Of a DNA stretch of 64,000 nucleotides, positions 28,075 through 63,913 are shown piece by piece. The stretch covers positions 261,165 through 325,164 of the forward strand of contig JAGVXH010000004.1 in NCBI GenBank assembly GCA_018303845.1. The letters are read 5' to 3'. A program made the position numbers and the translations under genes. Within the stretch, counting starts at the first letter, position 1. Every line of letters starts with the position of its first letter. The DNA comes from Candidatus Pacearchaeota archaeon (GTDB taxonomy: Archaea; Nanobdellota; Nanobdellia; Pacearchaeales; GW2011-AR1). The notes under the pieces are model-generated. The model had not been told where the DNA came from and made no database searches. It saw only the letters and a list, made by a program, of their open reading frames with translations.

Positions 28075-28452
28075 ATGGCTTCCGCAGAGGAACTCTTCAT
28101 CTCGGTTTCTCCTCAATTTTACAGGCAGAGTAAGTCCTCAGGACTAATGAGTCAGGCTGAACTTCTCCATTCCTTAAAACATCTCAGAAACCTATCAGTT
28201 CTCGCTCGCCAAAAAAACGATCTTAGAAAAAACTTCCATAAATTATTATCTTCGACACTAAAACAAATTAACGCAATTCAAGATAAAATGCCAACGCCAC
28301 AAATTCCAAAAACAATTTTAAGACATGAGGAGCAACTCTCAAAATCAAAGCTAGAACCAAGGCCAGAAGTCAAGAAAACATTTTCAAAACGAGACGAGAT
28401 TGAAGAAGAGCTCTTATTGATACAGGCCAAACTTAAGGAACTAAATTCTTAA
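28075..28452 (+). CDS. hypothetical coiled-coil protein
   Basis: 125 aa, starting 4 nt after the previous gene. Its last codons lie in the first copy of the 55-bp tandem repeat. Confidence 0.45.
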   Translation: MASAEELFISVSPQFYRQSKSSGLMSQAELLHSLKHLRNLSVLARQKNDLRKNFHKLLSSTLKQINAIQDKMPTPQIPKTILRHEEQLSKSKLEPRPEVKKTFSKRDEIEEELLLIQAKLKELNS

Positions 28453-28670
28453 CTCACCAGAGTTACCTACAGGGTAAAACCAGTTTTTAAGATTCCCAAA
28501 TTCTTAACTCACCAGAGTTACCTACAGGGTAAAACCAGTTTTTAAGATTCCAAAATTCTTAACTCACCAGAGTTACCTACAGGGTAAAACCAGTTTTTAA
28601 GATTCCAAAATTCTTAACTCACCAGAGCTACCTACAGGGTAAAACCAGTTTTTAAGATTCCCAAATTCTT
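28446..28670. repeat. 55-bp tandem repeat, 4 copies plus a partial fifth start
   Basis: The unit ttcttaactcaccagagttacctacagggtaaaaccagtttttaagattcc(c)aaa starts at 28446, 28501, 28556 and 28611, with ttctt again at 28666. There are 1-2 substitutions per copy. Confidence 0.95.
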
Positions 28671-28696
28671 AAAAACCCTCATCTCTAAGTTATAAA

Positions 28697-32603: not shown

Positions 32604-35516
32604 TCACTCTAAATAAATAGAAGCCATTCCGGGTTTGGCTTTGTTCGCTCGTCCAGCAGGATCAATCTTTGTTGAATCATTCACCGCAAAAACCGCAACT
32701 TCTCTAATATCTAATTTCGAATCCCTAATATCTCGAAGAATTTTTTCTTTATCAATCTGACCAATCTCAAACGGCATCACATAAACATAAACTTTCTTTG
32801 TATCCGATTTTAAAATTCCTTTAATTCTCTCAACAATCTTTTCATTTAATCCTTCGCCACTTATCTTTTGCCCCTTATTCTTTATAACTTTCTCGTCAAC
32901 CTTAGGCCAACTGGCAACCGAAATCAATCCCTTTTCCCCAATCTTCTCCCACAATTCCTCCGCGACATGCGGGCAAATCGGAGCAATCAACTTCAAAAAT
33001 TTCAAGCCACTATCTTTAGAACATCCCTTCTCTAACTCCCCAAACAATTCCCGAATCTCAATCGTTGCCTTCCGATATTCAAAACTATCATAATAATTCC
33101 CAATATTTTTAATACAAAGATTCAGCTTAGAAACTAACTCCTCAGAATCTTTTCCGCCTACAAACGAATCATAAAACTCGAAGACTTTCTTAATGAAACG
33201 AGTAGCTCCAAGTATACCCTTTTCCGACCAATCAAAATCCTTATCCGGACTAGCAACCGAAATCAAAAACCATCGCGTTGCATCCACCCCGTATTTCTTC
33301 ATTGTCTCAATTGGCTCAACAACATTTCCAAGACTTTTCGACATCTTCCGCCCATCCTCAGCATGAAGCATCCCCTGATGAAACAACTTCAAAAACGGCT
33401 CGTCAAAATCAAGCGCACCAATATCCCTCAAAAACTTAACATAAAACCGAGAGTAAAGCAAATGCATACAAGCATGTTCAGCCCCGCCAATATAAACATC
33501 AACCGGGTTCCAATACTTCACCTTATCAAAATCAAAAATCTTTTTCGAATTTTTAGGGTCAGCATATCTCAAAAAATACCAACTCGAATTAACAAACGTA
33601 TCCATCGTGTCACTTTCTCGTCGACCTTTCCCACCACACTTCGGGCATTTACAATTCAACCACTCACTATTAGTCTCAAGCGGATTGCCCTTCCCAAACT
33701 TAACCTCCTTAGGTAAAACAACAGGCAAATCTTTTTCAGGGACTGGCACAGCACCACACCCATCACAATAAACAATCGGAATCGGCGTCCCCCAATATCT
33801 CTGACGACTAACTCCCCAATCTCGTAACTTAAAATTCACAACTCGCTTAGCATTACCTTTTCCCGCTAACCAATTCGTAATATCCGTCTTTGCTTCCAAG
33901 CTACTCATGCCACTAAACTGCTTAGACGCCATCAAAACACCATCATCGACAAACGCTTCTTTCCCGGTATACCTATTCTTAAAATCCAAAGGATCCTTAT
34001 TCGTAACAACCTGCCGAACAGAAATCCCATACTTCTTCGCAAACTCAAAATCCCTCTTGTCATGCGCCGGAACTCCCATAACCATACCACTCCCATAATC
34101 AGCCAAAACAAAATTTCCAATCCAAATCGGAACTCTCTCACCATTTGCCGGATTAACCGCATAACTCCCGCTAAAAACCCCTTCCTTCTCTCGCCTCTCA
34201 ATATCCTTCTCCGAAACAGAATTCATTTTCCTCAAATATTCATCAACAGCTAATCGCTGCTCATTCGTCACCAACTCATCTAACTTATCATGCCCAGCCG
34301 CAACAACCATAAACGTAACCCCAAAAATCGTATCCGGCCTAGTCGTAAAAACCTTCCAAACATTTCCAGATTCGCGCGCATTGGCGGAAATTTGTGGCTT
34401 AATCTTGGAGTCAATAAATTCTTTCACCTTCTTAACATCTCCATTATAAGGCACAACATCAATTCCCAAAGATTTAGCAGAGTCAACTCCATCCTCAGAG
34501 TGTTCAAAATAAACAACATTTTCTTTTTTCAAATTGAATTCCTCTAAAACTTTTTCATAATACTTAGGAGAACTCTTTTTCGGATTAAACTCCGTAGTAA
34601 AAATCTCATAATCCTTAACCTTCCCAAAAAACAAATCAAACTTACTTTTAGGAGCCATAGTCAAAACAATCTTCCTATTAGGCAAAGAATCCAAATAATT
34701 CTTCAACTCTTGATTAACGTTTCCTTTTTCATCAACCAAACAATGAACAGCATCAACTAAAATAACTTTATCTGTGCTAATCTGTGAAATCTGTGGCTCA
34801 CCCCCAGAAATTTCGAAAGAAATTTCCGTCCCTTCGCTTCGCCCAATCCAATTCCTCTGCATAGTCTTAGTCCTCTCAGGCCAGTCAATTCTTTCTAAAT
34901 CATTAAGCAACTCCTCAGCATATTCAGTCGTCCTAAAAAACCACTGCCGAAGCTTTCGAACCTCAACATCAGTATCCTCGTGTCTCCAGCATTTTCCTTC
35001 ATTGACCTGCTCATTCGCCAAAACCGTATCACACTTAGGACACCAATTTACCGAAGCTTCCTTTTGATAAGCCAACCCCTTTTCAAGCATCTTCAAAAAA
35101 ATCCACTGGTCCCACTTATAATATTCACTATTCGCAGTATTAACCATTCGTGACCAATCATAAGAAACACCAAGTGCTCTCTGTTGCTTTACAAAATTTT
35201 CAATCGCATCATTAGTATACTTCTCTGGGTCAACCCCAGCCTTAATCGCAGCATTTTCCGCAGGAAGCCCCAAAGCATCAAACCCCATAGGATGCAAAAC
35301 ATTGAAACCTTTCATAATCTTAAACCGAGCCAAAATATCTCCAATCGTATAATTCAAAGCATGTCCCATATGAAGCCCAGCCCCGGAAGGATAAGGAAAC
35401 ATTTCCAAAACATAAAATTTTTCTTTTCCAGAATCTTCACTAATCTCAAAAACCCTTTTCTCTTCCCAAGTCTTCTGCCACTTTTTCTCTATACTTACAA
35501 AATCAATTTCATCCAT
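32604..35516 (-). CDS. leuS: leucine--tRNA ligase, bacterial type, with an extra in-frame insert of about 143 aa
   Basis: PYPSGAGLHMGHALNY (HIGH), RNWIGRSEG, TTRPDTIFG, the CP1 editing region and KMSKS. 970 aa; the insert lies at 34368-34796 between RSEGTEISF and VFTTRPDT. Confidence 0.9.
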   Translation of the reverse strand: MDEIDFVSIEKKWQKTWEEKRVFEISEDSGKEKFYVLEMFPYPSGAGLHMGHALNYTIGDILARFKIMKGFNVLHPMGFDALGLPAENAAIKAGVDPEKYTNDAIENFVKQQRALGVSYDWSRMVNTANSEYYKWDQWIFLKMLEKGLAYQKEASVNWCPKCDTVLANEQVNEGKCWRHEDTDVEVRKLRQWFFRTTEYAEELLNDLERIDWPERTKTMQRNWIGRSEGTEISFEISGGEPQISQISTDKVILVDAVHCLVDEKGNVNQELKNYLDSLPNRKIVLTMAPKSKFDLFFGKVKDYEIFTTEFNPKKSSPKYYEKVLEEFNLKKENVVYFEHSEDGVDSAKSLGIDVVPYNGDVKKVKEFIDSKIKPQISANARESGNVWKVFTTRPDTIFGVTFMVVAAGHDKLDELVTNEQRLAVDEYLRKMNSVSEKDIERREKEGVFSGSYAVNPANGERVPIWIGNFVLADYGSGMVMGVPAHDKRDFEFAKKYGISVRQVVTNKDPLDFKNRYTGKEAFVDDGVLMASKQFSGMSSLEAKTDITNWLAGKGNAKRVVNFKLRDWGVSRQRYWGTPIPIVYCDGCGAVPVPEKDLPVVLPKEVKFGKGNPLETNSEWLNCKCPKCGGKGRRESDTMDTFVNSSWYFLRYADPKNSKKIFDFDKVKYWNPVDVYIGGAEHACMHLLYSRFYVKFLRDIGALDFDEPFLKLFHQGMLHAEDGRKMSKSLGNVVEPIETMKKYGVDATRWFLISVASPDKDFDWSEKGILGATRFIKKVFEFYDSFVGGKDSEELVSKLNLCIKNIGNYYDSFEYRKATIEIRELFGELEKGCSKDSGLKFLKLIAPICPHVAEELWEKIGEKGLISVASWPKVDEKVIKNKGQKISGEGLNEKIVERIKGILKSDTKKVYVYVMPFEIGQIDKEKILRDIRDSKLDIREVAVFAVNDSTKIDPAGRANKAKPGMASIYLE

Positions 35517-36013: not shown

Positions 36014-36580
36014 ATGAAAATCCTAACAATCCTCGCCCATCCTTCAAAAGACTCCTTTAATCATGCTCTTTTACGGCAATATATCAAAGGGACAAAACAA
36101 AATCACCAAGTAAAAACAATATACTTAGGCGACCTAAAATTCGACCCAATCCTCCACGAAGGTTACAAAAAAATCCAAACGCTAGAACCCGACTTACTAG
36201 ACGCCCAAAAAAAAATTCTCTGGGCAGACAAAATCACAATCTTTACCCCAATCTGGTGGACAACCCCTCCGGCACTCTTTAAGGGATTTATCGAAAGAAC
36301 CCTCCACCCAACTTTTGCCTTTAATAATCCTAGTGGCAATAAATACGAAAAACTCCTAAAGGGAAGAAACGCAAGAATAATCGCAACAATGGACGCTCCA
36401 CTTTTATATTATAAATTTATAGTCGGCGACCCACTCTACAAGCAAATGAAAGGCACCCTCTCCTTTTGCGGAATATCTCCAATCCAAAAAACCTACATCT
36501 CTAGTCTAAAATTTAAAACAAACAAACAAACAAACGAAATACTAAAACAAATTTACAAAGTAGGTTTAAACGAAAAATAA
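36014..36580 (+). CDS. flavodoxin-like-fold NAD(P)H dehydrogenase (quinone) family protein
   Basis: MKILTILAHPSKDSFNHALL N-terminus and IFTPIWWTTPPALFKGFIER, typical of the Flavodoxin_2 / NQO-like family. Confidence 0.75.
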   Translation: MKILTILAHPSKDSFNHALLRQYIKGTKQNHQVKTIYLGDLKFDPILHEGYKKIQTLEPDLLDAQKKILWADKITIFTPIWWTTPPALFKGFIERTLHPTFAFNNPSGNKYEKLLKGRNARIIATMDAPLLYYKFIVGDPLYKQMKGTLSFCGISPIQKTYISSLKFKTNKQTNEILKQIYKVGLNEK

Positions 36581-36655
36581 AATCCGTGTAAATCTCGCGT
36601 AATCTCGTGACCAACAACACTATCTAATTTCTAATCTCTATCGCCTAAAATCTAG
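36578..36655. repeat. AATCCGTGT-type motif run followed by a TAATCTC-type run
   Basis: aaaatccgtgtaaatctcgcgtaatctcgtgacc at 36578-36612, and ctaatttctaatctctatcgcctaaaatctag at 36624-36655. Confidence 0.85.
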
Positions 36656-36797
36656 TCAAGCCTCTTCTCCAATTCCCTAACCCTATCTCTCAAATACATA
36701 GCCCTCTTCACCAATCCAACAACTCCGCCGCTTCTCGCATATTAGCCTCCAACTCAATAATCACATTAGCAACCTCAGCCTTAGGAATCCCCTTAAC
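36652..36797 (-). pseudogene. diverged duplicate of the uvrB 3' end (UVR-domain codons) with a frameshift
   Basis: The minus strand reads KGIPKAEVANVIIELEANMREAAELLD, then a frameshift, then KRAMYLRDRVRELEKRLD*. The intact UvrB has SIPKAEVKNVIIELEADMREAAEMLDFERAMYLRDRVRELNKRLEK*. Confidence 0.8.
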
Positions 36798-37211
36798 TCA
36801 CCTCTAATCAAAGCATTAACATTTTTTCTTCGAAAAAATCGTTAGACAAATTCCTCCAGAATTCATATAAGAAATTTTGGCCCCAACATTCCGCAATTAG
36901 GGGTCTGCCGAGCGGCCGTAAATGGTGATTCCCTCAAATTTCAATCTATAATAACTTGCCCAACCCCAAAACTTTTAAATCATGTTACCACTACAAAATG
37001 TATAAATTAAAAAATATCCACACCACATAGAGAGTCCCACCGATTACGATTAGTAATTCCCAAGAAATACGTGGATAAAGAGAAGAAATACCAAGTCAAA
37101 GATATTTCAAAAGAGTTTTATCTTAGACTTGTCTATATAAAATAAAATTTTTACAGCGGAATATTAGTATTTAGAATTTATATTACACATAACTTACAAA
37201 AAGGAGAAAAA

Positions 37212-37403
37212 ATGAATAAAAATCCAAAAAAATCCAATTTCTTAATTACCATAATTTCAATAATGGCAATAACAGTCATTACACTATTTTTAGCAGTCAT
37301 TGGAGGTAAAAAGAGAAAAAAAACTCTGGAAAGGATAGCAAATGACAAAACCGCCTCACTTGGTATCAGAATCCAAGCCAGCAACTTAAGCAAAAAAATG
37401 TAA
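37212..37403 (+). CDS. small single-TM protein
   Basis: 63 aa with AGGAG 7 nt upstream of the ATG. One hydrophobic helix and then a basic segment. Followed by a hairpin and a T-run. Confidence 0.45.
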   Translation: MNKNPKKSNFLITIISIMAITVITLFLAVIGGKKRKKTLERIANDKTASLGIRIQASNLSKKM

Positions 37404-37407
37404 CATA

Positions 37408-37441
37408 GAAAGAGCCCGCGCCCACAAGCAAAGGCTCTTTC
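37408..37441 (+). terminator. stem-loop followed by a T-run downstream of the small ORF
   Basis: gaaagagcc (37408-37416) pairs with ggctctttc (37433-37441), and tttttt follows within 10 nt. The role is inferred. Confidence 0.35.
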
Positions 37442-37547
37442 GACCCATTTTTTATTTCAAGAAAATTATATTCTTTAAGATACTATATTAAATTAGATAT
37501 TTTAACAGTCCTTTTTATTTCCCAAATCAACATATTCCACCAACCTC

Positions 37548-37584
37548 AAAAGTCCGTGCCAGTCCATGAAGTCCGTGGTTAAAA
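37548..37584. repeat. AGTCCGTGN x3 motif run directly behind the uvrB stop
   Basis: aaaagtccgtgccagtccatgaagtccgtggttaaaa. The uvrB stop codon is at 37585-37587. Confidence 0.85.
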
Positions 37585-40227
37585 TTATTTCTCTAATCTC
37601 TTGTTAAGTTCCCTAACCCTATCCCTCAAATACATCGCCCTCTCAAAATCAAGCATCTCCGCAGCCTCCCTCATATCAGCCTCCAACTCAATAATAACAT
37701 TCTTCACTTCCGCCTTAGGTATACTCTTAGTATCCTTAATCTCAATCTTCTTATCTCTTATAGGTTTTACAATCGTCATCGGCGTAATCCCATGTTTCAA
37801 ATTATAAGCAATCTGTTTCGCCCGCCTTCTCTCAGTTTCCTTAATCGCTTCCTTAATCGACCCAGTAACAACATCAGCATACAAAACAACTTTAGCCTCC
37901 GAATTCCGAGCAGCCCTCCCAATTATCTGAATCAAACTTCTCTTATCTCGCAAGAACCCCTCCTTATCAGCGTCAAGCACCCCAACAAATCCAATCTCCG
38001 GAATATCAATTCCCTCTCGCAATAAATTAATCCCAACAAGTACATCAAACTTACCCAACCGTAGCTCCCGCAAAATCTCCGTCCTCTCAAACGTATCAAT
38101 CTCCGAATGCATATACCGACACTTAACCCCATTCTCCCCCAAAAAATCCGTCAACTCCTCCGCCATCCTCTTAGTAAGAGTCGTAAGCATAACCCGAAAC
38201 CCCTTCTTAACAGCCTTATCAATCTCAACCAAACAATCCCTCACCTGCCCCCCATAAGATTCGCGTCCATTCGCGGCTAAAATCTCACCCAGCAACTCAG
38301 AAAACTCCATGTTCTCACCATTCCCCCTGTTTGTAAAATGTCCCCTATCTTTCAATACAACAGACTTAACACCAAGCGCCTTAGAATAAATTTTAACAGA
38401 TTCTCTAATGCTCTTAGCATCATCAGAAGATTCAATTATAACAATGTCAGAAACTCTATTTGAAATTTTTTTATCAATCTTAAAATCATAAAACTCCTCA
38501 GCCTCCCATTCCTCCGTCCCCTTGTTCTTACAAGCAGCCGCAACCAAAATCAACTTCTTAACCTTCCTCTTAGTTTGCCCAAGCCACCGAACCAAAAAAG
38601 CCGCACCGGCACTAGCCCCAACCAAAACAGAATTCTCATCAACATCAATCTTTTCAAACTCTGCCTTCCACTTCTCATAATCAGGCTTCCAATTCTCAGG
38701 CATCAAAGGAGTAAATACGGCAGCACCTTTTTTCTCAAGTTCTGACTTAATCCAAGGAAACCAATTTCTTTCATTCTGCTCAGGCAAGCTATACCTCTTC
38801 ATATTCTCTCTATCATTAGGATTGGCCCCATGCACAATAACAACATTCCCCAAGCCCCCAGCGCAGCTGAGCTCTTCCACCGAAGGTGAGCCCTTCCGAC
38901 CACGAGCCCTTCCAGCAGAGCTGAGCCCCTCCGTAGAACTAATAGGTCGAATTTCGACCTCGGGATCAATTAGTCCTGTAGGCCTAATTATCTGTTCTAC
39001 GACGTTAGAAGAGCAACGCTCTTCGTATTCCCCAGGCGTCGCACTCACAAAAACAGTCGAATTCCCCTTCATATACTTTTCAAACTCACCAAACTTCAAC
39101 GGCCGATTGTCATATGCCGAAGTCAACCGAAATCCATAATCAATCAAATTCTTCTTCCGTGCCCGGTCCCCATTAAACATACCACCAACCTGCGGAACCG
39201 ACCGATGACTCTCGTCAATAATAAAAAGAAAATCCCCCTTAGGAAAATAGTCAAGCAAACAAAAAGCCTGTTCACCCTCACGCCTTCCATCAAAATGCCG
39301 CGAATAATTTTCAATTCCCTTGCAAGTCCCAGTCTCCTTCAACATCTCCAAATCATAAAGCGTCCTCTGTTTCAACCGATGTTTAACCAACTCATCGCTA
39401 ATCTCAGCCAAGTCAATCTTCAACTGTTCCCGAATTTCCAAAGCAGCCTTATCAAAAACACTCTCTGGCACAACATAATTACGCGCAGGCCAAACATGAA
39501 AATACTTCATATCACTAAGCTTCTCACCAGTCACCTTATCAATCTCAAAAATTTTCTCAACCTCATCTCCAAAAAATTCAATCCTAATAATATTTTCCGA
39601 ATATCCAGGAATAAAATCAATAACATCTCCCTTAACTCTGAAGCGCCCTTGAATTAAATCCAAATCATTCCGTTCAAAAGCTCCACTAACCAACTTCCCA
39701 ATAAAATCCTTCCTTCCAATCTTCTCGCCAACTTCAACAGGAAACCCCATAGACCGAAACATTTTAGGGTCACTCATTCCATAAATACAACTAACACTCG
39801 CAACAACAATAACGTCACTTCGAGTCAAAAGACTAGCAACAGTCGCATGCCTCATCATCTCAATTCGCGGATTAATCGCCGAATCTTTCTCAATATACTG
39901 ATCCTTCGCAGGCAAATAACTCTCCGGCTGATAATAATCATAATACGAAATAAAATACTCAACCCGGTTCTCAGGAAAAAACTCCCGCATCTCCTCATAA
40001 AGCTGAGCCGCAAGTGTCTTATTATGGGCCAAAATCAAAGTAGGCCTCCCAACCTTCGCAATAACATTCGCCATCGTAAAAGTCTTCCCTGACCCAGTCA
40101 CACCCAAAAGAGTCTGCATATTCTTACCTTCTCGGATCCCATCAACTAAACCAGCAATCGCCACAGGCTGGTCCCCAGTAGGTTTAAACTTCGATTTCAA
40201 CTTAAACTTTCGCTTTTCAATTTCCAT
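37585..40227 (-). CDS. uvrB: excinuclease ABC subunit B with an in-frame alpha/beta serine-hydrolase domain insert of about 229 aa
   Basis: GVTGSGKTFTMA, YYDYYQPE, DESH, TTLTKRMAEELT, the helicase C motifs and a UVR domain. 880 aa versus the usual ~660; the insert lies at about 38254-38943. Confidence 0.9.
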   Translation of the reverse strand: MEIEKRKFKLKSKFKPTGDQPVAIAGLVDGIREGKNMQTLLGVTGSGKTFTMANVIAKVGRPTLILAHNKTLAAQLYEEMREFFPENRVEYFISYYDYYQPESYLPAKDQYIEKDSAINPRIEMMRHATVASLLTRSDVIVVASVSCIYGMSDPKMFRSMGFPVEVGEKIGRKDFIGKLVSGAFERNDLDLIQGRFRVKGDVIDFIPGYSENIIRIEFFGDEVEKIFEIDKVTGEKLSDMKYFHVWPARNYVVPESVFDKAALEIREQLKIDLAEISDELVKHRLKQRTLYDLEMLKETGTCKGIENYSRHFDGRREGEQAFCLLDYFPKGDFLFIIDESHRSVPQVGGMFNGDRARKKNLIDYGFRLTSAYDNRPLKFGEFEKYMKGNSTVFVSATPGEYEERCSSNVVEQIIRPTGLIDPEVEIRPISSTEGLSSAGRARGRKGSPSVEELSCAGGLGNVVIVHGANPNDRENMKRYSLPEQNERNWFPWIKSELEKKGAAVFTPLMPENWKPDYEKWKAEFEKIDVDENSVLVGASAGAAFLVRWLGQTKRKVKKLILVAAACKNKGTEEWEAEEFYDFKIDKKISNRVSDIVIIESSDDAKSIRESVKIYSKALGVKSVVLKDRGHFTNRGNGENMEFSELLGEILAANGRESYGGQVRDCLVEIDKAVKKGFRVMLTTLTKRMAEELTDFLGENGVKCRYMHSEIDTFERTEILRELRLGKFDVLVGINLLREGIDIPEIGFVGVLDADKEGFLRDKRSLIQIIGRAARNSEAKVVLYADVVTGSIKEAIKETERRRAKQIAYNLKHGITPMTIVKPIRDKKIEIKDTKSIPKAEVKNVIIELEADMREAAEMLDFERAMYLRDRVRELNKRLEK
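38869..38932. repeat. 4 copies of GAGC(C/T)C(T/C)TCC at 16-19 nt spacing, in frame at the N-terminal border of the UvrB insert
   Basis: Copies start at 38869, 38888, 38904 and 38923. On the minus strand they encode EGLSSAGRARGRKGSPSVEELS. Confidence 0.9.
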
Positions 40228-42015: not shown

Positions 42016-42597
42016 TTATTTTAAATATACTTTTCTTTTCATCCAAAAAAAACTTGCAGTTAATCCGGCAAGGAACAATATGCTACCAGCCCAAGAGGTT
42101 GAATTGATGGATAAGTTTGCAATCGAATTACCTGTTATGTGAGAGGATAACAAAAACATTCCCCCAATAAGTCCGACAGTAGCCACAACACCACTATATT
42201 TTGTCATCCCAGATACAGCTTGTTTTTCTCCATATTTACCATCACTTGCTCTATAGAGAAGACCTTGCAAAGAGTTAATTTTCTCCTGTTCGTCCCCAGA
42301 TAGAAGTCGATGTGGGCATGTATCATATATGTCAACTTTCGTATGTCCAATTTCGTCCATCCGGTCTAAAACTTTATTGGCGAGATTATAAAAATGATCA
42401 GCCTTCTCAGCGGATAATTCTTTTTTTGCTTTCTCCGCTCGCGATAAAATATAATATATAGCTGAAAAAGTTCTAGGGTCCTGAGAGTTCGGATTATCTA
42501 GCGTTTCCTCCAAAAAACGAATATTTTTTTTCACATCACACGGCTTTTCATTTATGAATTTTCCCGCACCTCCAATACACCCCTTTTTTCTCCCCAT
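42016..42597 (-). CDS. hypothetical protein with two C-terminal TM helices
   Basis: 193 aa ORF lying between intact uvrC and a duplicated uvrC 5' fragment. Composition is discordant with neighbouring genes. Confidence 0.45.
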   Translation of the reverse strand: MGRKKGCIGGAGKFINEKPCDVKKNIRFLEETLDNPNSQDPRTFSAIYYILSRAEKAKKELSAEKADHFYNLANKVLDRMDEIGHTKVDIYDTCPHRLLSGDEQEKINSLQGLLYRASDGKYGEKQAVSGMTKYSGVVATVGLIGGMFLLSSHITGNSIANLSINSTSWAGSILFLAGLTASFFWMKRKVYLK

Positions 42598-42634
42598 ATT
42601 ATGCTAAATAGAATATGCTTTAAATAAATATCTG

Positions 42635-42754
42635 AAAATAACTCTTAACCCGGTTTACCAAAACCTTCGCCTTCCCAACATAAATAATTTTGCCCTTAGA
42701 ATCCTTAAACAAATAACATCCAGGATTTTTAGGAGCATGCCCTAAATCTATCAT
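42635..42754 (-). pseudogene. diverged duplicate of the uvrC 5' end (first ~40 codons)
   Basis: The minus strand reads [40 protein letters not shown], then QIFI*. The intact UvrC has [40 protein letters not shown]. Confidence 0.85.
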
Positions 42755-43144: not shown

Positions 43145-43159
43145 ATATTTCAATTTCCT

Positions 43160-43198
43160 TTACATAACCTTCCCCAAAAACTTCCAACTCCAACTCCT
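43160..43198 (-). pseudogene. short diverged duplicate of the uvrA 3' end
   Basis: The minus strand reads RSWSWKFLGKVM* followed by AGGAAA. The intact uvrA ends KSWTGKFLGKVM* followed by GGAAAG, 137 nt upstream. Confidence 0.5.
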
Positions 43199-43253
43199 CT
43201 CTAACCCTCACAGCCTCCCTCTCCCTCTCATTCCCACAATCTTGTCTCGCCAT

Positions 43254-43287
43254 AAAATCCGTGTAATCCGTGTAATCTGTGGCTAAA
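43254..43287. repeat. AATCCGTGT x2 plus AATCTGTGGCTAAA directly behind the uvrA stop
   Basis: aaaatccgtgtaatccgtgtaatctgtggctaaa. The uvrA stop is at 43297-43299. Confidence 0.9.
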
Positions 43288-43296
43288 TTTCTTTCC

Positions 43297-46092
43297 TTAC
43301 ATAACCTTCCCTAAAAATTTCCCCGTCCATGATTTCTTATTCAAGACCACCTCTTCCGGAGTCCCAACTGCCACCACAGTCCCCCCACCTTCCCCGCCCT
43401 CGGGCCCCAAATCAATCACATAATCCGCAGTCTTAATCACATCCAAATTATGCTCAATCACAACCATCGTATTCCCCTTCTCAACCAAACTATCAATCAC
43501 TCGAAGCAACTTCTTAACATCATGAAAATGAAGCCCAGTCGTAGGTTCATCCAAAATATACAAAGTCCGACCAGTTCCCCTTTTCGCCAACTCTTTAGTT
43601 AACTTAATCCTCTGACTCTCTCCACCAGAAAGCGTCGTAGAACTTTGCCCGAGCTTAATATATTCCAGCCCCACCTTTTTCAAAGTCTCAATCTTCCCAT
43701 GAATAGAAGAAACATTTTCAAAAATTACCAATGCCTCTTCTACGCTCATATCCAAAACATCCGCAATATTTTTTCCCTTAAATAAAATATCCAAAGTGTC
43801 CCGATTATACCGCTTTCCCTTACATTCCTCACATTCAACATAAACGTCCGGCAAAAAATGCATCTCAATTTTAATCGTCCCATCGCCCTTACATCTTTCA
43901 CAACGACCTCCACTGACATTAAACGAAAACCTTCCAGGCCCATATCCCCGAATCTTCGCCTCTTTAGTCGAAGCAAACAACTTCCTAATTTCATCAAATA
44001 CTCCAACATAAGTAGCAGGGTTCGACCGTGGCGTCTTCCCGATCGGCGACTGATTAATCACAATCACCTTATCAATTTTCTCATCCAAAGAAATTTCCTT
44101 ATGCTTCCCAACCAAAATCTTCGATCCCTTATTCAACTTCTTCTCCATTCCCTTATACAAAATCTCATTCATTAGCGTAGACTTTCCAGAACCCGAAACT
44201 CCAGTTATACAATTTAAAATTCCAATCGGAATATTAACATCAATATTTTTCAAATTATTTTCCGAACATCCTTTCAGCCGAATATACTTATTACTCGCTC
44301 GCCTTCGAAGTGGCGTCTCAACCTTCAACTCACCAGAAAGATATTTCCCAGTCAAACTCTTTTCATTCTTCTCAATTTCCTTCGGAGTTCCAGCCGCAAC
44401 AATTTCGCCCCCATGAATCCCGGCACCAGGCCCAACATCAACAACATAGTCCGCAGCCCGAATCGTATCCTCGTCATGCTCAACAACAATCAAACTGTTT
44501 CCCAAATCCCGAAGCCGATGCAGTGTCTCAATTAACTTAGCATTATCCCTTTGATGCAAACCAATCGACGGCTCATCTAAAACATACATCACTCCCATCA
44601 GGTTCGCCCCAATCTGCGTAGCAAGCCGAATTCTCTGCGCCTCACCCCCACTCAAACTCCCAGCCGTTCTAGACAAATTCAAATATCCAAGTCCAACATT
44701 ATTCAAAAAACTAAGCCGACTTCGAATCTCCTTCAAAATCAAATTCGCAATCTCCATCTCTTTATCAGAGAGCTTCAAGTTCTCAAAAAACTCCGCACAC
44801 TTCCCAATCGACATCTCAGTCACATTCACAATATTCTTATCCAATATTTTAATTGACAAAATCTTTTCTTTCAGTCGCTTCCCTTCACAACTAGGACAAG
44901 TCTTAGACCTCTGAAACTTCTCAAGCATCCGTCTTCGATAATCACTATCAGTTGACTTATACAATCTCTCCGACTGCGGAATCAAACCCTCCCATCCTTC
45001 TTCCATATTCATATTCGCTCCGCTAGACCACTTCGCAAAAATCGGCCTCTTGTCGCCATACATCAAAATCTCATATTGCTTCTCACTCATGTTACAAACC
45101 GGCTTCATAATATTAAACCCAAAACTTTTCCCTACCGCACCCAACTGCTGAATCCTCCAAGAATTATCCATCTTCCCATAAAGCTTAATCGCCCCGTCCG
45201 CTATCGTCTCATCCTCGTCAGGAATAATCAACTCAGGATCAAACTCAGTCTTAACGCCAAGCCCATGACATTCCTCACACGCGCCAAAAGGACTATTGAA
45301 CGAAAACATTCTTGGCTGCAACTCTTCAAAAGCAAGCCCACACTCAGGACAAGCCATGACAGTAGAATAAATATGCAACTTCCCCTTCTCATCAAGAACT
45401 TCAATCATCCCACCTTCGCTAACCTTCGCCGCATTCTCAATCGCCTCACTAAGTCGTCCAGAGTCAGTCACATTAACTCTATCAACAACAATAGCAATAT
45501 CATGTTTCACATATCTCCCCATCTTAATCGTCTCATCAGTCCGATAAATCACACCATCAACTCGAACCCGCGCCCAACCATCCCGATTCAAACCCAAAAT
45601 AACCTGCTCATGCGTCCCCTTCTTGTCAACAACAACAGGCGCCAAAATAGTAACATTCCCCTCAACCTCATTCCCAATCCGGTCACTAATCCTTTGAGGA
45701 GAACTCGACTCAATTTTACAACCATGCTCAGGGCAATAAGCAGTCCCAACTCTAGCAAAAAGCAATCTTAAATAATCATAAATCTCAGTCACAGTCCCAA
45801 CAGTTGACCGCGGATTTTTACTCGTCGTCTTCTGCTCAATAGAAATAGCAGGGCTAAGCCCCTCGATAGAATCGACATCAGGCTTATTCATAACGCCCAA
45901 AAACTGCCGAGCATAAGCCGAAAGCGATTCAACATAACGCCTCTGCCCTTCAGCATAAAGCGTATCAAATGCGAGAGTAGACTTCCCCGAACCAGACAGC
46001 CCAGTAATAACTACAAACTTCTCTCGTGGCAAATCAATGCTCACATTTTTCAAATTGTGTTCTCGTGCTCCCTTAATTCGTATCTGTTTCAT
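43297..46092 (-). CDS. uvrA: excinuclease ABC subunit A
   Basis: Two ABC modules (GLSGSGKSTLAFDT and GVSGSGKSTL), LSGGE signatures and Zn-finger Cys pairs. Start placed at MKQIRIKGAREHNLKN; the tracked ORF extends to 46122. Confidence 0.9.
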   Translation of the reverse strand: MKQIRIKGAREHNLKNVSIDLPREKFVVITGLSGSGKSTLAFDTLYAEGQRRYVESLSAYARQFLGVMNKPDVDSIEGLSPAISIEQKTTSKNPRSTVGTVTEIYDYLRLLFARVGTAYCPEHGCKIESSSPQRISDRIGNEVEGNVTILAPVVVDKKGTHEQVILGLNRDGWARVRVDGVIYRTDETIKMGRYVKHDIAIVVDRVNVTDSGRLSEAIENAAKVSEGGMIEVLDEKGKLHIYSTVMACPECGLAFEELQPRMFSFNSPFGACEECHGLGVKTEFDPELIIPDEDETIADGAIKLYGKMDNSWRIQQLGAVGKSFGFNIMKPVCNMSEKQYEILMYGDKRPIFAKWSSGANMNMEEGWEGLIPQSERLYKSTDSDYRRRMLEKFQRSKTCPSCEGKRLKEKILSIKILDKNIVNVTEMSIGKCAEFFENLKLSDKEMEIANLILKEIRSRLSFLNNVGLGYLNLSRTAGSLSGGEAQRIRLATQIGANLMGVMYVLDEPSIGLHQRDNAKLIETLHRLRDLGNSLIVVEHDEDTIRAADYVVDVGPGAGIHGGEIVAAGTPKEIEKNEKSLTGKYLSGELKVETPLRRRASNKYIRLKGCSENNLKNIDVNIPIGILNCITGVSGSGKSTLMNEILYKGMEKKLNKGSKILVGKHKEISLDEKIDKVIVINQSPIGKTPRSNPATYVGVFDEIRKLFASTKEAKIRGYGPGRFSFNVSGGRCERCKGDGTIKIEMHFLPDVYVECEECKGKRYNRDTLDILFKGKNIADVLDMSVEEALVIFENVSSIHGKIETLKKVGLEYIKLGQSSTTLSGGESQRIKLTKELAKRGTGRTLYILDEPTTGLHFHDVKKLLRVIDSLVEKGNTMVVIEHNLDVIKTADYVIDLGPEGGEGGGTVVAVGTPEEVVLNKKSWTGKFLGKVM

Positions 46093-47317: not shown

Positions 47318-47423
47318 AATAAAAATAACAAAGCTGCACCAGCAATCTAATTTCTAATTTATAAAATCTAATCTCGATGAAAAAGAAGTAACTTTAAAAA
47401 CAAATTAGTTCTTTTTCATTTAC

Positions 47424-47583
47424 GCTCGCATAGTCTAGTGGCCAAGGATTCCACCCTCTCAAGACCAGTGGGAAGTCCTAGTCGATGAGACAACGACTTC
47501 ATGTTCTCTTGAACAACCACGGGATCTCTCCGAGATTCATTTGGAGAACGGTGGCGACCCGGGTTCAAATCCCGGTGCGAGCG
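47424..47583 (+). tRNA. tRNA-Glu(CUC) with an intron of about 87 nt 3' of the anticodon
   Basis: Acceptor GCTCGCA/TGCGAGC, D-arm GTCT-AGTGGCCAA-GGAT, and anticodon stem CCACC (47451-55) pairing with GGTGG (47550-54). The loop CTCTCAA gives anticodon CTC. T-arm is CCGGG-TTCAAAT-CCCGG, discriminator G, and no encoded CCA. Confidence 0.8.
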
Positions 47584-56451: not shown

Positions 56452-56572
56452 AAAATCCGTGTAATCCGTGTAATCTGCGGCTAAATAATTAACAAAATCC
56501 AAAAACAAAATCTGCGTAATCTGCGTAATCTGCGGCTAAATAATTAACAATCAATCCAAAAAAAATCCGTGC
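56452..56572. repeat. two tandem ~44-nt units (AATCYGYGT x3 + GGCTAAATAATTAACAA) plus a partial third, behind the helicase gene
   Basis: 56452-56495 is aaaatccgtgtaatccgtgtaatctgcggctaaataattaacaa. 56507-56550 is aaaatctgcgtaatctgcgtaatctgcggctaaataattaacaa. 56560-56572 is aaaaatccgtgcc. Confidence 0.95.
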
Positions 56573-61531: not shown

Positions 61532-62440
61532 TTATTCCTTCCTTCCCATAATCCTCTCAATATCTTCAGTCGTCTTCGCTCCAACCAAATCCCCACGCAA
61601 CTTCTTCCCGTCCGCTAACCCCTTCGTGAAATTCATCGCCTGATATTTAACCTGCCGAAAATAGAGCCCATATTTCTTAGCCAATTTCAAATACTCTCCA
61701 AATCCAACCTCGTCCCCCTTTAGTCCGTGTTCGTCCGTGTTCGTCCGTGTGCCATTTTTTAAGAGTTGACCAGATTTATTTTCAAGCCCCAAGAAAATTC
61801 CAGGTCTCCCGATAGCCTCTCGTCCAATCATCACAAAATCAAAATCCCTCAAAATCTTCTCCACATCATTAAGATTGGAAACCCCACTAAAAATAACAGG
61901 CATACTAGCCTTCTCCTTAATCTTCAAAGCAAAATCATAATCAACTTCTCCGCTATACCCCTGACTCAAAGTCCGAGCATGAATACAAACAGCACTCACT
62001 CCAATCTCCTCACAAATCCTCAAAATATCAAAGGCCAAATCACTCTTCCGAATTTTAACAGTCAATGGTTTTCTAGTACAACTTCTCATCACTCTCAAAA
62101 TATCTTCAATTACTTCCAAATCATTTAAACAAGCTCCATGTTTCAATTTCTTAGACAACTTCGACGGACACCCCAAATTAAAATCCCAACCCGAAACCCT
62201 AGAATCATATTCCTTCATAAAACTCTTAATCCCACGAGAAGAATTCCCAAACAACTGCAAAACAGGCTTATCATCTAAATCAAGTTTAGCCTTAGATAAA
62301 GCCGAAGTCATCCCAGTCCAAGTCAACCCACATCCAGCCCGCCTACAAAGCAACCGAAAAGCAATATCATTAGGCTCAAGCATCGGAGCAAGAAAAACTC
62401 TGGCCTTCAATTTCAAATTCCCAAGTCTATAATCCATCAC
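61532..62440 (-). CDS. dus: tRNA-dihydrouridine synthase
   Basis: LAPMLEPNDIAFRLLCRR.G, DFNLGCP, VKIR and IHART motifs. Carries the repeat-derived insert GTRTNTDEHGLKG. Confidence 0.8.
   Translation of the reverse strand: MMDYRLGNLKLKARVFLAPMLEPNDIAFRLLCRRAGCGLTWTGMTSALSKAKLDLDDKPVLQLFGNSSRGIKSFMKEYDSRVSGWDFNLGCPSKLSKKLKHGACLNDLEVIEDILRVMRSCTRKPLTVKIRKSDLAFDILRICEEIGVSAVCIHARTLSQGYSGEVDYDFALKIKEKASMPVIFSGVSNLNDVEKILRDFDFVMIGREAIGRPGIFLGLENKSGQLLKNGTRTNTDEHGLKGDEVGFGEYLKLAKKYGLYFRQVKYQAMNFTKGLADGKKLRGDLVGAKTTEDIERIMGRKE
61721..61753. repeat. (TCGTCCGTGT)-type x3 run, in frame in dus
   Basis: Direct reading gives tagtccgtgttcgtccgtgttcgtccgtgtgcc. Confidence 0.9.
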
Positions 62441-63847: not shown

Positions 63848-63913
63848 CCTAATCTCTAATCTCTATCATCTAATCTCTATCATCTAATCTCTAACATCTA
63901 ACCCCTAACCCCT
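63848..63913. repeat. TAATCTC / CTAACCC-type motif run behind a minus-strand stop codon
   Basis: Direct reading gives cctaatctctaatctctatcatctaatctctatcatctaatctctaacatctaacccctaacccct. Confidence 0.9.

What the first reader, a model, noticed from the sequence alone, without database searches (positions are those of the whole stretch)
56452..56572. One short tandem-motif family lies behind stop codons and also in frame at the borders of inserted protein domains
On the minus strand the element reads TTTAGCC-(RCRGATTAC)2-3-RGATTTT. Copies lie directly 3' of the uvrA stop (43254-43287), the uvrB stop (37548-37584) and the uvrB remnant (36578-36612). Two tandem units plus a partial third lie behind the helicase gene (56452-56572). 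Recognisable copies are also translated in frame in leuS at both insert borders (34770-34800, 34368-34404), in uvrB at the C border of the hydrolase insert (38254-38284) and in dus (61721-61753, encoding GTRTNTDEHG). That makes at least 9 copies in 64 kb. The layout gene part / 3'-flank-type repeat / extra domain / 3'-flank-type repeat / rest of gene suggests two readings. Either formerly separate ORFs with their flanking repeats were fused into the host gene, or a repeat-bounded cassette can insert while keeping the frame. The closest analogy I know is Rickettsia palindromic elements, which insert in frame into genes, but those do not carry whole domains. An RNA-level role such as processing or splicing signals cannot be excluded from sequence alone.
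Basis: partly seen in the sequence, partly recalled or inferred. Interest (0 to 1): 0.85.

Follow-up and report, generated by a model that had tools for sequence, protein, structure and literature searches.

The report
Stop-flank repeats bordering genes inserted within genes
In a tiny-genome archaeon (Pacearchaeota), one family of short DNA repeats that normally sits just behind genes also lies in frame inside essential genes, where it marks flexible linkers into which whole small enzyme genes have been built repeatedly.

Summary
The window is from a Pacearchaeota (DPANN) archaeon. On the minus strand it carries about nine elements built as head TTTAGCC/TTTAACC, then 2-3 tandem units of 9-10 nt with core RCRRA, then an oligo-T tail in the intergenic copies. 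Three sit behind the uvrA and helicase stops, and divergent ones sit behind uvrB and a uvrB 3' remnant. In-frame copies lie at both borders of a HAD insert in LeuS, at the C border of a Ser_hydrolase insert in UvrB, and in the Dus interdomain linker.

Sister genomes hold canonical intergenic copies of the same sequence variants ("flavours") as the coding copies. Across Pacearchaeota, the same LeuS and UvrB linkers are either empty (4-6 aa), hold a solo repeat, or hold whole ~190-aa genes, often with repeat peptides on both sides. The inserts are complete free-standing genes minus start and stop. They evolve under purifying selection, with histories discordant from the host gene. The repeat-encoded stretches are predicted to be disordered.

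Identical 23-34-mers occur in many bacterial phyla, often as inverted pairs. I found no Rfam family or paper describing the element. Whether the repeats cause the insertions is not shown. Splicing is not supported.

The parts
43254..43287 (-). Canonical element TTTAGCC(ACAGATTAC)(ACGGATTAC)ACGGATTTT, starting 9 nt after the uvrA stop.
   Evidence: E = 1.2e-10
56452..56572 (-). Two canonical elements (56452-56485, 56507-56540) within a 55-nt tandem duplication, plus a partial third (56558-56572). All lie behind the UvrD/HRDC helicase stop at 56599.
37548..37584 (-). Divergent element TTTTAACC ACGGACTTC ATGGACTGGC ACGGACTTTT, directly after the uvrB TAA.
   Evidence: Same ACGGAC flavour and TTAACC head as the L147 intergenic copy. 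Not found by the strict HMM.
36578..36612 (-). Element GGTCACGAGATTACGCGAGATTTACACGGATTTTA, 39 nt behind the stop of the displaced original uvrB 3' end.
   Evidence: E = 0.013. Identical arrangement directly behind the intact uvrB in L147.
36652..36790 (-). uvrB 3'-end remnant (IPKAEVANVIIELEANMREAAELLD..). In the sister genome this is the real uvrB end.
34770..34800 (-). In-frame copy at the N border of the LeuS insert (aa 239-249, GEPQISQISTD). The head reads TGAGCC, so the head's TAG frame is read as GAG.
   Evidence: (E = 9.5e-4)
34407..34769 (-). HAD-type hydrolase cassette inside LeuS (about aa 250-370).
   Evidence: Pfam HAD_2/Hydrolase. Same cassette in P0011 and P0014. dN/dS 0.16, dS 0.82 against host 0.13.
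34368..34404 (-). In-frame copy at the C border of the LeuS insert (aa 371-383, KPQISANARESG). Orthologous to the solo repeat of P0002.
38854..38937 (-). N border of the UvrB insert. It is a different tandem repeat (about 19 nt, GGAAGGGCTCA..) encoding STEGLSSAGRARGRKGSPSVEELSCAGG.
   Evidence: pLDDT below 50.
38287..38853 (-). Ser_hydrolase (PF06821) cassette inside UvrB (about aa 459-647). It is a whole gene from NVVIVHG to LLGEIL, with the GASAG and GHF motifs intact.
38254..38284 (-). In-frame copy at the C border of the UvrB insert: TTTAGCC GCGAATGGAC GCGAATCT, encoding (EI)LAANGRES.
   Evidence: pLDDT below 50 at 652-658.
61721..61753 (-). In-frame copy (ACGGACGAAC)x3 in the Dus interdomain linker, encoding GTRTNTDEHG.
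   Evidence: The same peptide occurs in LeuS P0013 and UvrB P0244.
43155..43317 (-). 26-nt duplication of the uvrA 3' end (43292-43317 and 43155-43180). It flanks about 110 nt that begins with the element.

Best explanation
The window is from a Pacearchaeota (DPANN) archaeon. It carries a dispersed family of 30-37-bp elements. Each has a head TTTAGCC/TTTAACC, then two or three tandem units of 9-10 nt with core RCRRA, then an oligo-T tail. The units come in GATTAC, GGACGAAC and GCGAAT flavours.

In this lineage every copy lies on the G-rich strand, which is also the coding strand of most genes. Intergenic copies sit just behind stop codons and keep the oligo-T tail, which resembles an archaeal terminator signal. 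The tandem units have no stop codon in any forward frame. A copy that is read through, or that lands in coding DNA, can therefore survive in an interdomain linker, where it encodes a disordered peptide. Coding copies have lost the T-run.

The LeuS and UvrB linkers that accept such copies are also hot spots where complete small enzyme genes have repeatedly been built in, in frame. These include Ser_hydrolase, HAD, NUDIX, Ham1 and others. They often come with intergenic-type repeats of different flavours on each side.

My preferred mechanism is inferred, not shown. A segment running from one gene's 3' repeat, through the next gene, to that gene's own 3' repeat is placed in the linker. This could happen by recombination at or near resident repeat copies. 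It could also happen by re-fusion of a host gene that had been split at the linker. Selection then keeps only events that are in frame and free of stops and terminators. Once present, the cassette plus its borders is exchanged between strains as a unit.

Shown: the family, its positions and frames, the polymorphism among relatives, the whole-gene origin of the inserts, purifying selection on them, discordant histories, and disordered borders.

Inferred: the terminator role, the recombination pathway, and any causal role of the repeats.
For: Family and enrichment:
- Motif and grammar counts far exceed shuffles.
- Intergenic and coding copies of the same flavour occur within one genome or its sister.

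Organism:
- The exact LeuS is annotated as Candidatus Pacearchaeota.
- Archaeal PolB, Nre, FEN1 and TFIIE are present.
- The exact UvrB lies on 24 independent contigs.

LeuS linker states:
- 26 proteins are empty (6-7 aa), 12 hold 16-39 aa, and 18 hold 126-320 aa.
- The 16-39-aa class is often repeat-type, such as PRICANGRESGKN, PRTSTDEHG and GTRTNTDEHG.
- The large inserts are of at least five unrelated kinds.

Canonical elements in frame in relatives:
- In L131 a canonical TTTTTAGCCACGGATTACACGGATTCACACGGATTT lies in frame at the N border, with an ACGAAT-flavour copy at the C border.
- UvrB shows the same series: a 4-aa baseline, solos (IGTDSTDLHG, PRINASLHERE), and cassettes with or without repeats.

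Whole-gene origin of the inserts:
- Free-standing homologues are about 190 aa.
- Two of them lie next to an insert-free LeuS in L130.
- The same cassette is embedded in LeuS at four or more sites, and in UvrB, the Der GTPase, a GT2 glycosyltransferase and another aaRS.

Independent histories, window against L147:
- The UvrB cassette plus borders is a 714-nt identical tract (aa 424-662), set within a gene that has 143 differences.
- Cassette dS is 0.013 against 0.25 for the host.
- The LeuS HAD cassette has dS 0.82 against 0.13 for the host, with dN/dS 0.16.

Structure: AlphaFold gives host and insert pLDDT of 80-95, and below 50 for borders 431-458 and 652-658.

Local churn at gene 3' ends: the uvrB and uvrA 3' ends are duplicated around inserted DNA that begins with the element.
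Against: - Many embedded cassettes have clean borders without repeats.
- The free-standing Ser_hydrolase genes in L130, L149 and L150 have no flanking repeats.
- The two border repeats differ in flavour, which makes simple homologous excision and integration between them inefficient.
- No recombinase, transposase or integrase was found among window ORFs of 150 aa or more.
- No split-LeuS intermediate was seen.
- In bacteria, single arms show no sense or antisense preference relative to the nearest gene end (21 against 20). A sense-strand RNA role is therefore not general.
- The general grammar was defined after seeing the copies.
- Strand polarity in Pacearchaeota cannot be separated from gene orientation or replication strand with the DNA in hand.
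Confidence: 0.6

Rival explanations
1. Secondary invasion. The small enzyme genes entered the LeuS and UvrB linkers by ordinary rare gene fusion or domain insertion. The repeats are independent invasive or slippage-prone DNA that later settles wherever the protein tolerates extra residues. Under this reading the repeats mark permissive linkers but play no part in insertion.
For: - There are cassettes without repeat borders (P0073, P0048, P0023; P0242, P0243, P0246, P0249; many).
- There are repeats in linkers without any cassette (Dus; solos).
- UvrB cassettes of one clade carry different border flavours.
- Other tandem families, (GGGTTTGG)n and (GATTAGA)n, also lie in frame in UvrC, LeuS and SpoIIM.
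- The LeuS 3' border shows a 14-aa indel between close strains.
Against: - At least five unrelated genes have entered the same 6-aa LeuS loop. That is hard to explain by rare random fusion alone.
- The C-border repeat head abuts the last codon of the cassette, just as a 3'-flank copy abuts a stop.
- An SD-like GGAGGG lies between the N-border repeat and the cassette in L131.
- The recombination tract in uvrB ends just outside both border repeats.
Confidence: 0.3
2. Dedicated cassette system. The repeat is the recognition site of a site-specific recombinase or nuclease. Repeat-bounded gene cassettes are excised and integrated at resident repeat copies, in an integron-like or homing-like manner, in both intergenic and coding DNA.
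For: - Identical 23-34-mers occur across many phyla and across genomes of 36-65% GC. This argues for sequence-specific recognition or mobility.
- Different flavours occur as nested inverted pairs in Flavobacterium.
- The cassette plus borders behaves as one unit.
- The same cassette occurs in several host genes.
Against: - No recombinase was found in the window.
- There is no fixed target duplication. The duplications seen are 26 nt or about 150 nt of the gene end.
- Border flavours differ.
- Pacearchaeota copies are single arms, not the inverted pairs seen in bacteria.
- Donor genes lack repeats.
Confidence: 0.1
3. Removal after transcription or translation. The border repeats are processing signals, and the insert is spliced out of the mRNA (archaeal bulge-helix-bulge intron) or out of the protein.
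For: - The window has an intron-containing tRNA, so the splicing endonuclease is presumably present.
- Some UvrB relatives carry true inteins (P0286 and P0293).
Against: - Border regions show no excess complementarity (z = -1.7 and -1.4).
- All inserts are in frame and stop-free, with dN/dS 0.16.
- Pfam finds hydrolase folds and no Hint or intein domain in this UvrB or LeuS.
- AlphaFold models the insert as a separate folded domain on disordered linkers.
- The catalytic GASAG and GHF motifs are intact.
Confidence: 0.03
4. Chance or low-complexity resemblance. Under this reading the coding 'copies' are unrelated to the intergenic motif.
For: The strict HMM misses four of the nine copies.
Against: - Shuffles give 0.01-0.2 hits against the 4-7 observed.
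- Exact flavour matches to canonical intergenic copies occur in sister genomes.
- A canonical element lies in frame in the L131 LeuS.
Confidence: 0.01

Closest known systems
Rickettsia palindromic elements (RPE; Ogata et al. 2000, from my own knowledge)
   Same: A dispersed short repeat found both between genes and in frame inside essential genes. It is tolerated at permissive surface sites and adds a peptide segment.
   Different: RPEs are 100-150-bp palindromes restricted to Rickettsiales and do not flank whole inserted genes. Here the copies are 30-37-bp single arms made of 9-10-nt tandem units. They have an unrelated sequence, occur across phyla, and border whole-gene inserts.
REP / REPIN elements with RAYT transposases, and bacterial MITEs (from my own knowledge; review PMC3184786 listed, not read)
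   Same: Short, abundant, extragenic elements near gene 3' ends. In bacteria 62 of 129 forward arms have a reverse arm within 150 nt in the fwd..rev arrangement, against only 5 in rev..fwd. Nested copies also occur.
   Different: No arm is itself a palindrome. Pacearchaeota copies are unpaired. There is no GTAG-type REP head. No RAYT or transposase was seen in the window. No fixed target duplication exists. Identical sequences are shared across phyla, which vertically inherited REPINs do not show.
Integron gene cassettes (ORF plus attC)
   Same: It works like a set of promoterless ORFs, each followed by a short repeat. Different ORFs are found at one acceptor site.
   Different: There is no attC-type imperfect palindrome or core sites, and no IntI, attI or Pc. 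The acceptor sites lie inside coding sequence and the product is a fusion protein.
Inteins and homing elements in conserved proteins
   Same: In-frame occupation of conserved essential proteins (LeuS, UvrB, Der), with presence or absence varying among relatives. UvrB relatives also carry real inteins.
   Different: The inserts are ordinary enzymes (Ser_hydrolase, HAD, NUDIX) with no Hint fold or splicing residues. They sit in linkers, not in conserved motifs.
Borg tandem repeats that create disordered regions (PMC9879509; abstract seen)
   Same: Archaeal tandem direct repeats occurring both intergenically and in ORFs. They evolve rapidly and generate intrinsically disordered protein segments.
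   Different: Per that abstract, Borg repeats arise independently and are recently formed. Here one sequence family with a fixed head and core is dispersed through the genome and shared across phyla. Units of 10 nt are not multiples of three.
Cyanobacterial STRR heptamers and mycobacterial MIRUs (from my own knowledge)
   Same: Short tandem units in intergenic 3' regions, with several families per genome. Herpetosiphon loci show arrays of many such families next to this one.
   Different: The sequences are different, and no in-frame whole-gene insertion association is known for them.

Membership tests
RPE-type in-frame selfish repeats | The same repeat family is present intergenically and in frame inside ORFs. 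| tested here: met
RPE-type in-frame selfish repeats | A palindromic consensus able to form a hairpin. | tested here: not met
   No reverse arm near any Pacearchaeota copy. Arms are direct tandem units.
RPE-type in-frame selfish repeats | Insertion at permissive, surface or linker positions of the host protein. | tested here: met
   Loop length polymorphism, AlphaFold pLDDT below 50 at the borders, and the Dus linker position.
REP/REPIN-RAYT | Inverted doublets of the repeat (REPIN) predominate. | tested here: inconclusive
   62 of 129 are paired fwd..rev in bacterial loci. None is paired in the window or in Pacearchaeota loci.
REP/REPIN-RAYT | A cognate RAYT (Y1 transposase) gene in the genome. 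| not testable with these tools
   None among window ORFs of 150 aa or more. The rest of the genome is not in hand.
MITE | Terminal inverted repeats plus a fixed-length target-site duplication. | tested here: not met
   Window copies have no TIR. The flanking duplications are 26 nt (uvrA) and about 150 nt (uvrB) of the gene end, which is not a fixed TSD.
Integron cassette | An attC imperfect palindrome with RYYYAAC/GTTRRRY core sites. | tested here: not met
   The sequence of the copies shows this directly. The head TTTAGCC is followed by direct tandem units.
Integron cassette | IntI integrase with attI and Pc next to the array. | tested here: not met
   No integrase in the window. The acceptor sites are inside leuS and uvrB.
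Intein | Hint/splicing domain and junction residues. | tested here: not met
   Pfam finds Ser_hydrolase and HAD only. Relatives P0286 and P0293 do carry PF14890/PF14528.
Archaeal bulge-helix-bulge intron | The exon-intron junctions pair to form the BHB motif. | tested here: not met
   Duplex energies of the border regions are not different from shuffles (z = -1.7 and -1.4).
Borg-type aaTR | Tandem units in ORFs with length divisible by three, creating disordered regions. | tested here: inconclusive
   The 9-nt units fit and the 10-nt units (dus, uvrB, leuS 3') do not. Disorder is predicted.
Rfam RNA families | A match to a curated covariance model. | tested here: not met
   No family covers the element in the window or in 18 bacterial loci.

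The most novel reading that the evidence does not exclude
DPANN archaea (and CPR bacteria) may possess a frame-preserving gene-cassette mechanism. In it, a short repeat conserved across phyla serves as the recombination site through which whole enzyme genes are shuttled into, out of and between the interdomain linkers of essential proteins such as LeuS, UvrB and Der. That would amount to an 'integron inside proteins'. It would also give the widespread but undescribed repeat family a function.
Probability: 0.15. Interest if true: 0.92.

Novelty: new variant of a known kind. Interest (0 to 1): 0.78.

Why it matters
If the reading is right, it shows a route by which ultra-small genomes build multidomain proteins. 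Entire free-standing genes are nested into linkers of essential proteins, repeatedly and reversibly, at sites marked by a dispersed repeat.

It also exposes a short repeat family shared, down to identical 34-mers, by DPANN archaea and many bacterial phyla with 36-65% GC. No Rfam model, annotation or searchable paper describes it. Some of the bacterial hosts, such as Flavobacterium and Bacteroides, are genera with cultured, genetically tractable members. Its function (terminator module, recombination site or mobile element) is therefore directly testable.

In practice, gene callers annotate these fusions misleadingly. This LeuS is named 'HAD-IA family hydrolase' in NCBI.

Tried and rejected
- Literature: I searched full text for the repeat as DNA strings, for its peptide translations, and by topic. 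Nothing relevant came back.
- Rfam on the window and on 18 bacterial loci found nothing at the element.
- BLAST of the element against annotated plasmids and phages gave hits in Bacteroides and Persicobacter replicons and in gut phage contigs. No feature is annotated under them.
- My first assumption, that this was a CPR bacterium (from the Rifle metagenome sources), was wrong. One search shows Pacearchaeota.
- The strict three-copy HMM fails on the other flavours, so I moved to a grammar and to cross-genome flavour matches.
- I tested for a BHB-like pairing of the insert borders. There is none.
- I looked for donor loci with a repeat-gene-repeat layout. L130, L149 and L150 have none.
- I tested whether bacterial single arms are sense-oriented behind genes. 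They are not.
- The 34-mer scan of metagenomes gave only 14 loci, two of them Pacearchaeota-like. That is too few for genome-wide statistics.
- Ideas I considered from memory and could not tie to all flavours: similarity to DnaA boxes, CsrA, PUF or Rho sites, the 16S 790 loop, an IS5/IS630 target duplication, and retro-insertion.
Full report
**1. What is in the window**

The window has about 37% GC and a very strong strand asymmetry, with GC skew around -0.36 on the plus strand. Most genes lie on the minus strand.

Pfam annotation gives the following genes:
- the repair genes uvrA, uvrC and uvrB;
- the aminoacyl-tRNA synthetase genes leuS and alaS;
- a UvrD/HRDC helicase, an SNF2 helicase and Dus;
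- archaeal markers: family B DNA polymerase, Nre, FEN1 and TFIIE-alpha.

The exact LeuS protein is deposited as Candidatus Pacearchaeota archaeon, and the longest contig carrying it is 964,825 bp. The exact UvrB protein occurs on 24 contigs from ENA, JGI and Logan assemblies, including aquifer metagenomes. The long ORFs are therefore not an assembly accident. My initial guess of a CPR bacterium was wrong.

**2. Checking the observation**

The canonical form on the minus strand is TTTAGCC, then (RCRGATTAC)2, then RCRGATTTT. It occurs three times:
- 43254-43287, starting 9 nt after the uvrA stop;
- 56452-56485 and 56507-56540, behind the helicase and inside a 55-nt tandem duplication.

The statistics on the window are as follows:
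- The head-plus-unit pattern gives 4 hits against 0.06 expected. The two-unit pattern gives 7 against 0.2.
- An nhmmer profile of the three clean copies also finds the leuS N-border copy (E = 9.5e-4) and the copy behind the uvrB remnant (E = 0.013). It misses the other four.
- Those four are different 'flavours' of the same design: ACGGACTTC behind uvrB, ACGGACGAAC in dus, and GCGAATGGAC in uvrB and at the leuS C border.
- A grammar of three RC[AGC]RA cores spaced 9-10 nt finds six minus-strand sites against 0.045 in dinucleotide shuffles. Head plus two cores finds five against 0.01. I wrote this grammar after seeing the copies, so I looked for independent support.

The independent support comes from sister genomes:
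- L147 has an intergenic TTAACC ACGGACGAAC ACGGACGAAC ACGGACTTTT. This is the dus flavour, with the canonical head and T tail.
- L132 has an intergenic CC GCGAATTTGC GCGAATGGGC GCGAATTTTG. Some 1.5 kb away, the same flavour lies in frame in its LeuS.
- In L131 a fully canonical TTTTTAGCCACGGATTACACGGATTCACACGGATTT lies in frame inside LeuS.

The coding copies are therefore real family members. Every copy found in Pacearchaeota-like DNA is on the G-rich strand.

**3. Where the coding copies sit**

- LeuS is 970 aa, against about 810-820 aa in most relatives. The extra ~140 residues (aa 241-381) are a small HAD-type hydrolase. The two repeat copies encode aa 239-249 (GEPQISQISTD) and aa 371-383 (KPQISANARESG), which are exactly the two borders.
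- UvrB is 880 aa, against about 650. Its insert is a PF06821 Ser_hydrolase. The repeat copy (LAANGRES) follows the last residues of that domain. The N border is a different tandem repeat of about 19 nt.
- In Dus the copy (GTRTNTDEHG, aa 230-240) follows the end of the TIM barrel at about aa 221. It lies in the linker to the C-terminal domain, and no domain is inserted there.
- An AlphaFold model of UvrB folds both the host domains and the insert confidently (pLDDT 80-95). It leaves exactly the two border stretches, 431-458 and 652-658, below 50. These are flexible linkers.

**4. The inserts are whole genes**

Free-standing homologues of the UvrB insert are about 190-aa proteins. They are common in DPANN and CPR genomes. 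They start M(x)0-8 NVVIVHG and end FPELLEEILK-stop. The insert runs from NVVIVHG to LLGEIL, with the GxSxG (GASAG) and GHF motifs intact.

In locus L130, two such genes lie directly downstream of an insert-free LeuS.

A search of 1.84 billion representative proteins finds the same cassette embedded in several hosts:
- LeuS, at four or more different positions;
- UvrB;
- the Der/EngA GTPase, between its two G domains;
- a GT2 glycosyltransferase;
- another class I synthetase.

**5. The sites are polymorphic hot spots**

In LeuS relatives with recognisable anchors, the loop between GTEIxFEI and WKVFTTRPDT falls into three classes:
- 6-7 aa in 26 proteins;
- 16-39 aa in 12 proteins, several of them plainly repeat-encoded (PRICANGRESGKN, PRTSTDEHG and GTRTNTDEHG, the last identical to the Dus peptide);
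- 126-320 aa in 18 proteins.

The large inserts are of at least five unrelated kinds: two Ser_hydrolase subtypes, HAD, Ham1 and an unknown type. Six of the 18 carry repeat-type peptides at one or both borders. Examples are FLATDYTDSHGF ... LSTNCANERE in P0072 and LATNFTDEHE ... LTTDGTDLRGHG in P0043.

A second LeuS site takes NUDIX or PF10706.

The UvrB linker between GLIDPEVEIRP and QVxDLxxEI shows the same series:
- a 4-aa baseline;
- solo repeats (IGTDSTDLHG, PRINASLHERE);
- cassettes with repeats (TRMNTDEHG ... STDCTGSHRQE; ... GTRTNTDEHGHDEG);
- cassettes without repeats.

**6. Cassettes have their own history**

L147 is a close relative, with 97% UvrB identity. The comparison gives these results:
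- uvrB differs at 143 of 2643 nt. However, nt 1272-1986 (aa 424-662, window 38956-38242) are identical. This tract is the cassette plus both border repeats to within 7 codons. The 72 nt just upstream of it carry 25 differences.
- dS is 0.013 for the UvrB cassette and 0.25 for the host part.
- In leuS the pattern is the reverse. Host dS is 0.13 (dN/dS 0.07). HAD cassette dS is 0.82, with dN/dS 0.16.
- The leuS differences are concentrated in the 3' half of the cassette, and the 3' border repeat has a 14-aa indel.

The inserts are therefore translated and under purifying selection. They also recombine independently of the gene they sit in.

**7. Gene 3' ends are being rebuilt around the element**

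In L147, uvrB ends with ..RELEKRLD-stop, followed by GATAGAGATTAG.., then GGTCACGAGATTACGCGAGATTTACACGGATTTTA, then the convergent flavodoxin gene. In the window exactly this sequence is the 'remnant' at 36578-36790. It has been displaced by about 950 bp of other DNA and by a new uvrB 3' end that brings its own element, 37548-37584.

Behind uvrA, a 26-nt copy of the gene's end (43292-43317) is repeated at 43155-43180. The two copies bracket about 110 nt that starts with the element. A Pacearchaeota-like contig, L134, shows the same kind of gene-end duplication with several flavours in a row.

**8. The family outside this lineage**

By my own arithmetic, about 0.3 hits would be expected by chance in 596 Gb.

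The hosts include Flavobacterium isolates, Herpetosiphon aurantiacus DSM 785, Pyrinomonadaceae, Anaerolineae, Planctomycetota, Nitrospirota, Cloacimonadota, Verrucomicrobiota and proteobacteria. The 23-mer also occurs in viral contigs. The exact 34-mer occurs in metagenomic contigs ranging from 36% to 65% GC.

In these loci the element behaves as follows:
- 62 of 129 forward arms have a reverse arm within 150 nt downstream, against 5 in the opposite arrangement.
- Different flavours can be nested inside one another.
- Arms lie close to gene ends, with a median of about 10 nt after a same-strand stop.
- Single arms show no sense or antisense preference (21 against 20).

No Rfam family matches the element. 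No annotation lies under the matches in plasmids or phages. Full-text searches for the DNA strings, for the peptide translations, or by topic returned nothing relevant.

**9. Interpretation**

What is shown:
- one dispersed repeat family;
- copies polar on the G-rich strand in this lineage;
- copies behind stops that keep an oligo-T tail;
- copies without the T-run, in frame, in interdomain linkers;
- the same linkers repeatedly occupied by complete small enzyme genes, often with intergenic-type repeats of different flavours on each side;
- cassettes that move or recombine as units.

- At the leuS N border the head reads TGAGCC in the very frame in which the canonical head TTTAGCC would give a TAG stop.
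- In L131 an SD-like GGAGGG lies between the N-border repeat and the cassette.

Two routes could produce the layout. I cannot decide between them.
- Recombination at or near resident repeat copies, which occur behind many genes and as solos in the linkers.
- Re-fusion of a host gene that had been split at the linker, reading through the intervening gene and its 3' repeats.

A simpler rival remains plausible. The repeats may only settle in places that tolerate extra residues and so merely mark permissive linkers. This fits three facts:
- many cassettes lack repeats;
- three free-standing donor genes have no flanking repeats;
- two other tandem families, (GGGTTTGG)n and (GATTAGA)n, also lie in frame in UvrC, LeuS and a SpoIIM-like protein.

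Removal by splicing is not supported.

**10. Comparison and verdict**

The closest known behaviour is that of Rickettsia palindromic elements, which show in-frame tolerance. In bacteria the closest is REP/REPIN or MITE-type extragenic repeats. The element fails the defining tests of each:
- it is not a palindrome in this genome;
- it has no fixed target duplication;
- no transposase was seen in the window;
- it has no attC cores and no Hint domain.

Borg tandem repeats (PMC9879509) are a useful comparator for repeat-made disordered segments. According to that paper's abstract they arise independently, whereas this is one family shared across phyla.

I rate the finding real and largely undescribed. 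It is a new variant of known kinds: in-frame repeats plus domain insertion. A minority reading, a repeat-guided and frame-preserving gene-cassette system, would be categorically new.

Noticed in passing
window 47424-47583 (+): Rfam finds a tRNA (44 bits) spread over 160 nt, which implies an insertion of about 89 nt. ARAGORN finds no tRNA at all in the window. This is probably an archaeal intron-containing tRNA.
   Followed up: partly
window 36613-37547: About 950 bp lie between the present uvrB stop and the displaced original uvrB 3' end. This DNA is absent from sister genome L147. It holds only small ORFs, such as a 63-aa hydrophobic ORF at 37212-37403 (+), and tandem repeats at 37207-37272.
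   Followed up: partly
window 42620-42754 (-) and 42016-42597 (-): A 44-aa GIY-YIG fragment (weak Pfam hit in the contig gene calls) lies upstream of an unknown 193-aa ORF, which itself lies upstream of uvrC. This looks like a displaced uvrC 5' end. The uvrA-uvrC interval holds entirely different genes in L147 (23S_rRNA_IVP, SLFN_AlbA_2).
   Followed up: no
window 40395-40431, 25169-25197, 18047-18069 (-) and 23626-23662 (+ strand gene): (GGGTTTGG)n octamer runs are translated in frame in UvrC, a SpoIIM-like protein and an unknown ORF. In the plus-strand gene Nre the same run appears as CCAAACCC on the coding strand. This family therefore keeps its DNA-strand orientation, not its gene orientation.
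   Followed up: partly
window 41541-41571, 32703-32733, 47346-47372, 63849-63913: (GATTAGA)n heptamer runs occur in several places. They lie in frame in UvrC (KRLEIRDSKLE) and near the LeuS C terminus (RDIRDSKLDIR, a 6-aa insertion relative to most relatives). They also occur intergenically, and next to the element behind the uvrB remnant.
   Followed up: partly
window 28443-28672: A 55-nt unit is repeated 4.2 times at 98% identity in the intergenic region upstream of alaS.
   Followed up: no
window 26557-26634: A perfect 12-nt x 6.5 tandem repeat inside the TFIIE-alpha-like gene encodes (KKVV)n.
   Followed up: no
L147 4950-5200: Behind uvrA, the sister genome carries a different repeat family. 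It consists of several copies of TAGAGAGACG followed by small GC hairpins such as GGCTTTGCC and GAAAGCTTTGCTTTC.
   Followed up: no
proteins P0286, P0293 (UvrB relatives): Some UvrB relatives carry true inteins (PF14890 Intein_splicing, PF14528 LAGLIDADG) with an HTH domain. One of them carries these in addition to the Ser_hydrolase insert.
   Followed up: no
proteins P0361, P0494; locus L020: In other lineages the cassette borders contain the peptide IPAEAGIQ/H. I believe from memory that this peptide derives from a palindromic repeat of the GTCATTCCCGCGAAGGCG.. type. That DNA also sits inside an inverted pair of the present element in L020.
   Followed up: no
L044, L045, L071, L094, L129: In Herpetosiphon and other loci the element sits in long arrays of many different short tandem-unit families. 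Examples are CCACGAAGGACACGAAGG, CCCATAGCC, CATCCTT and GGGTTACGGGTTGC.
   Followed up: no
whole window: GC skew of -0.2 to -0.46 on the plus strand is sustained over all 64 kb. This is unusually strong and is shared by related contigs (skew about 0.26-0.49 on the coding strand).
   Followed up: partly
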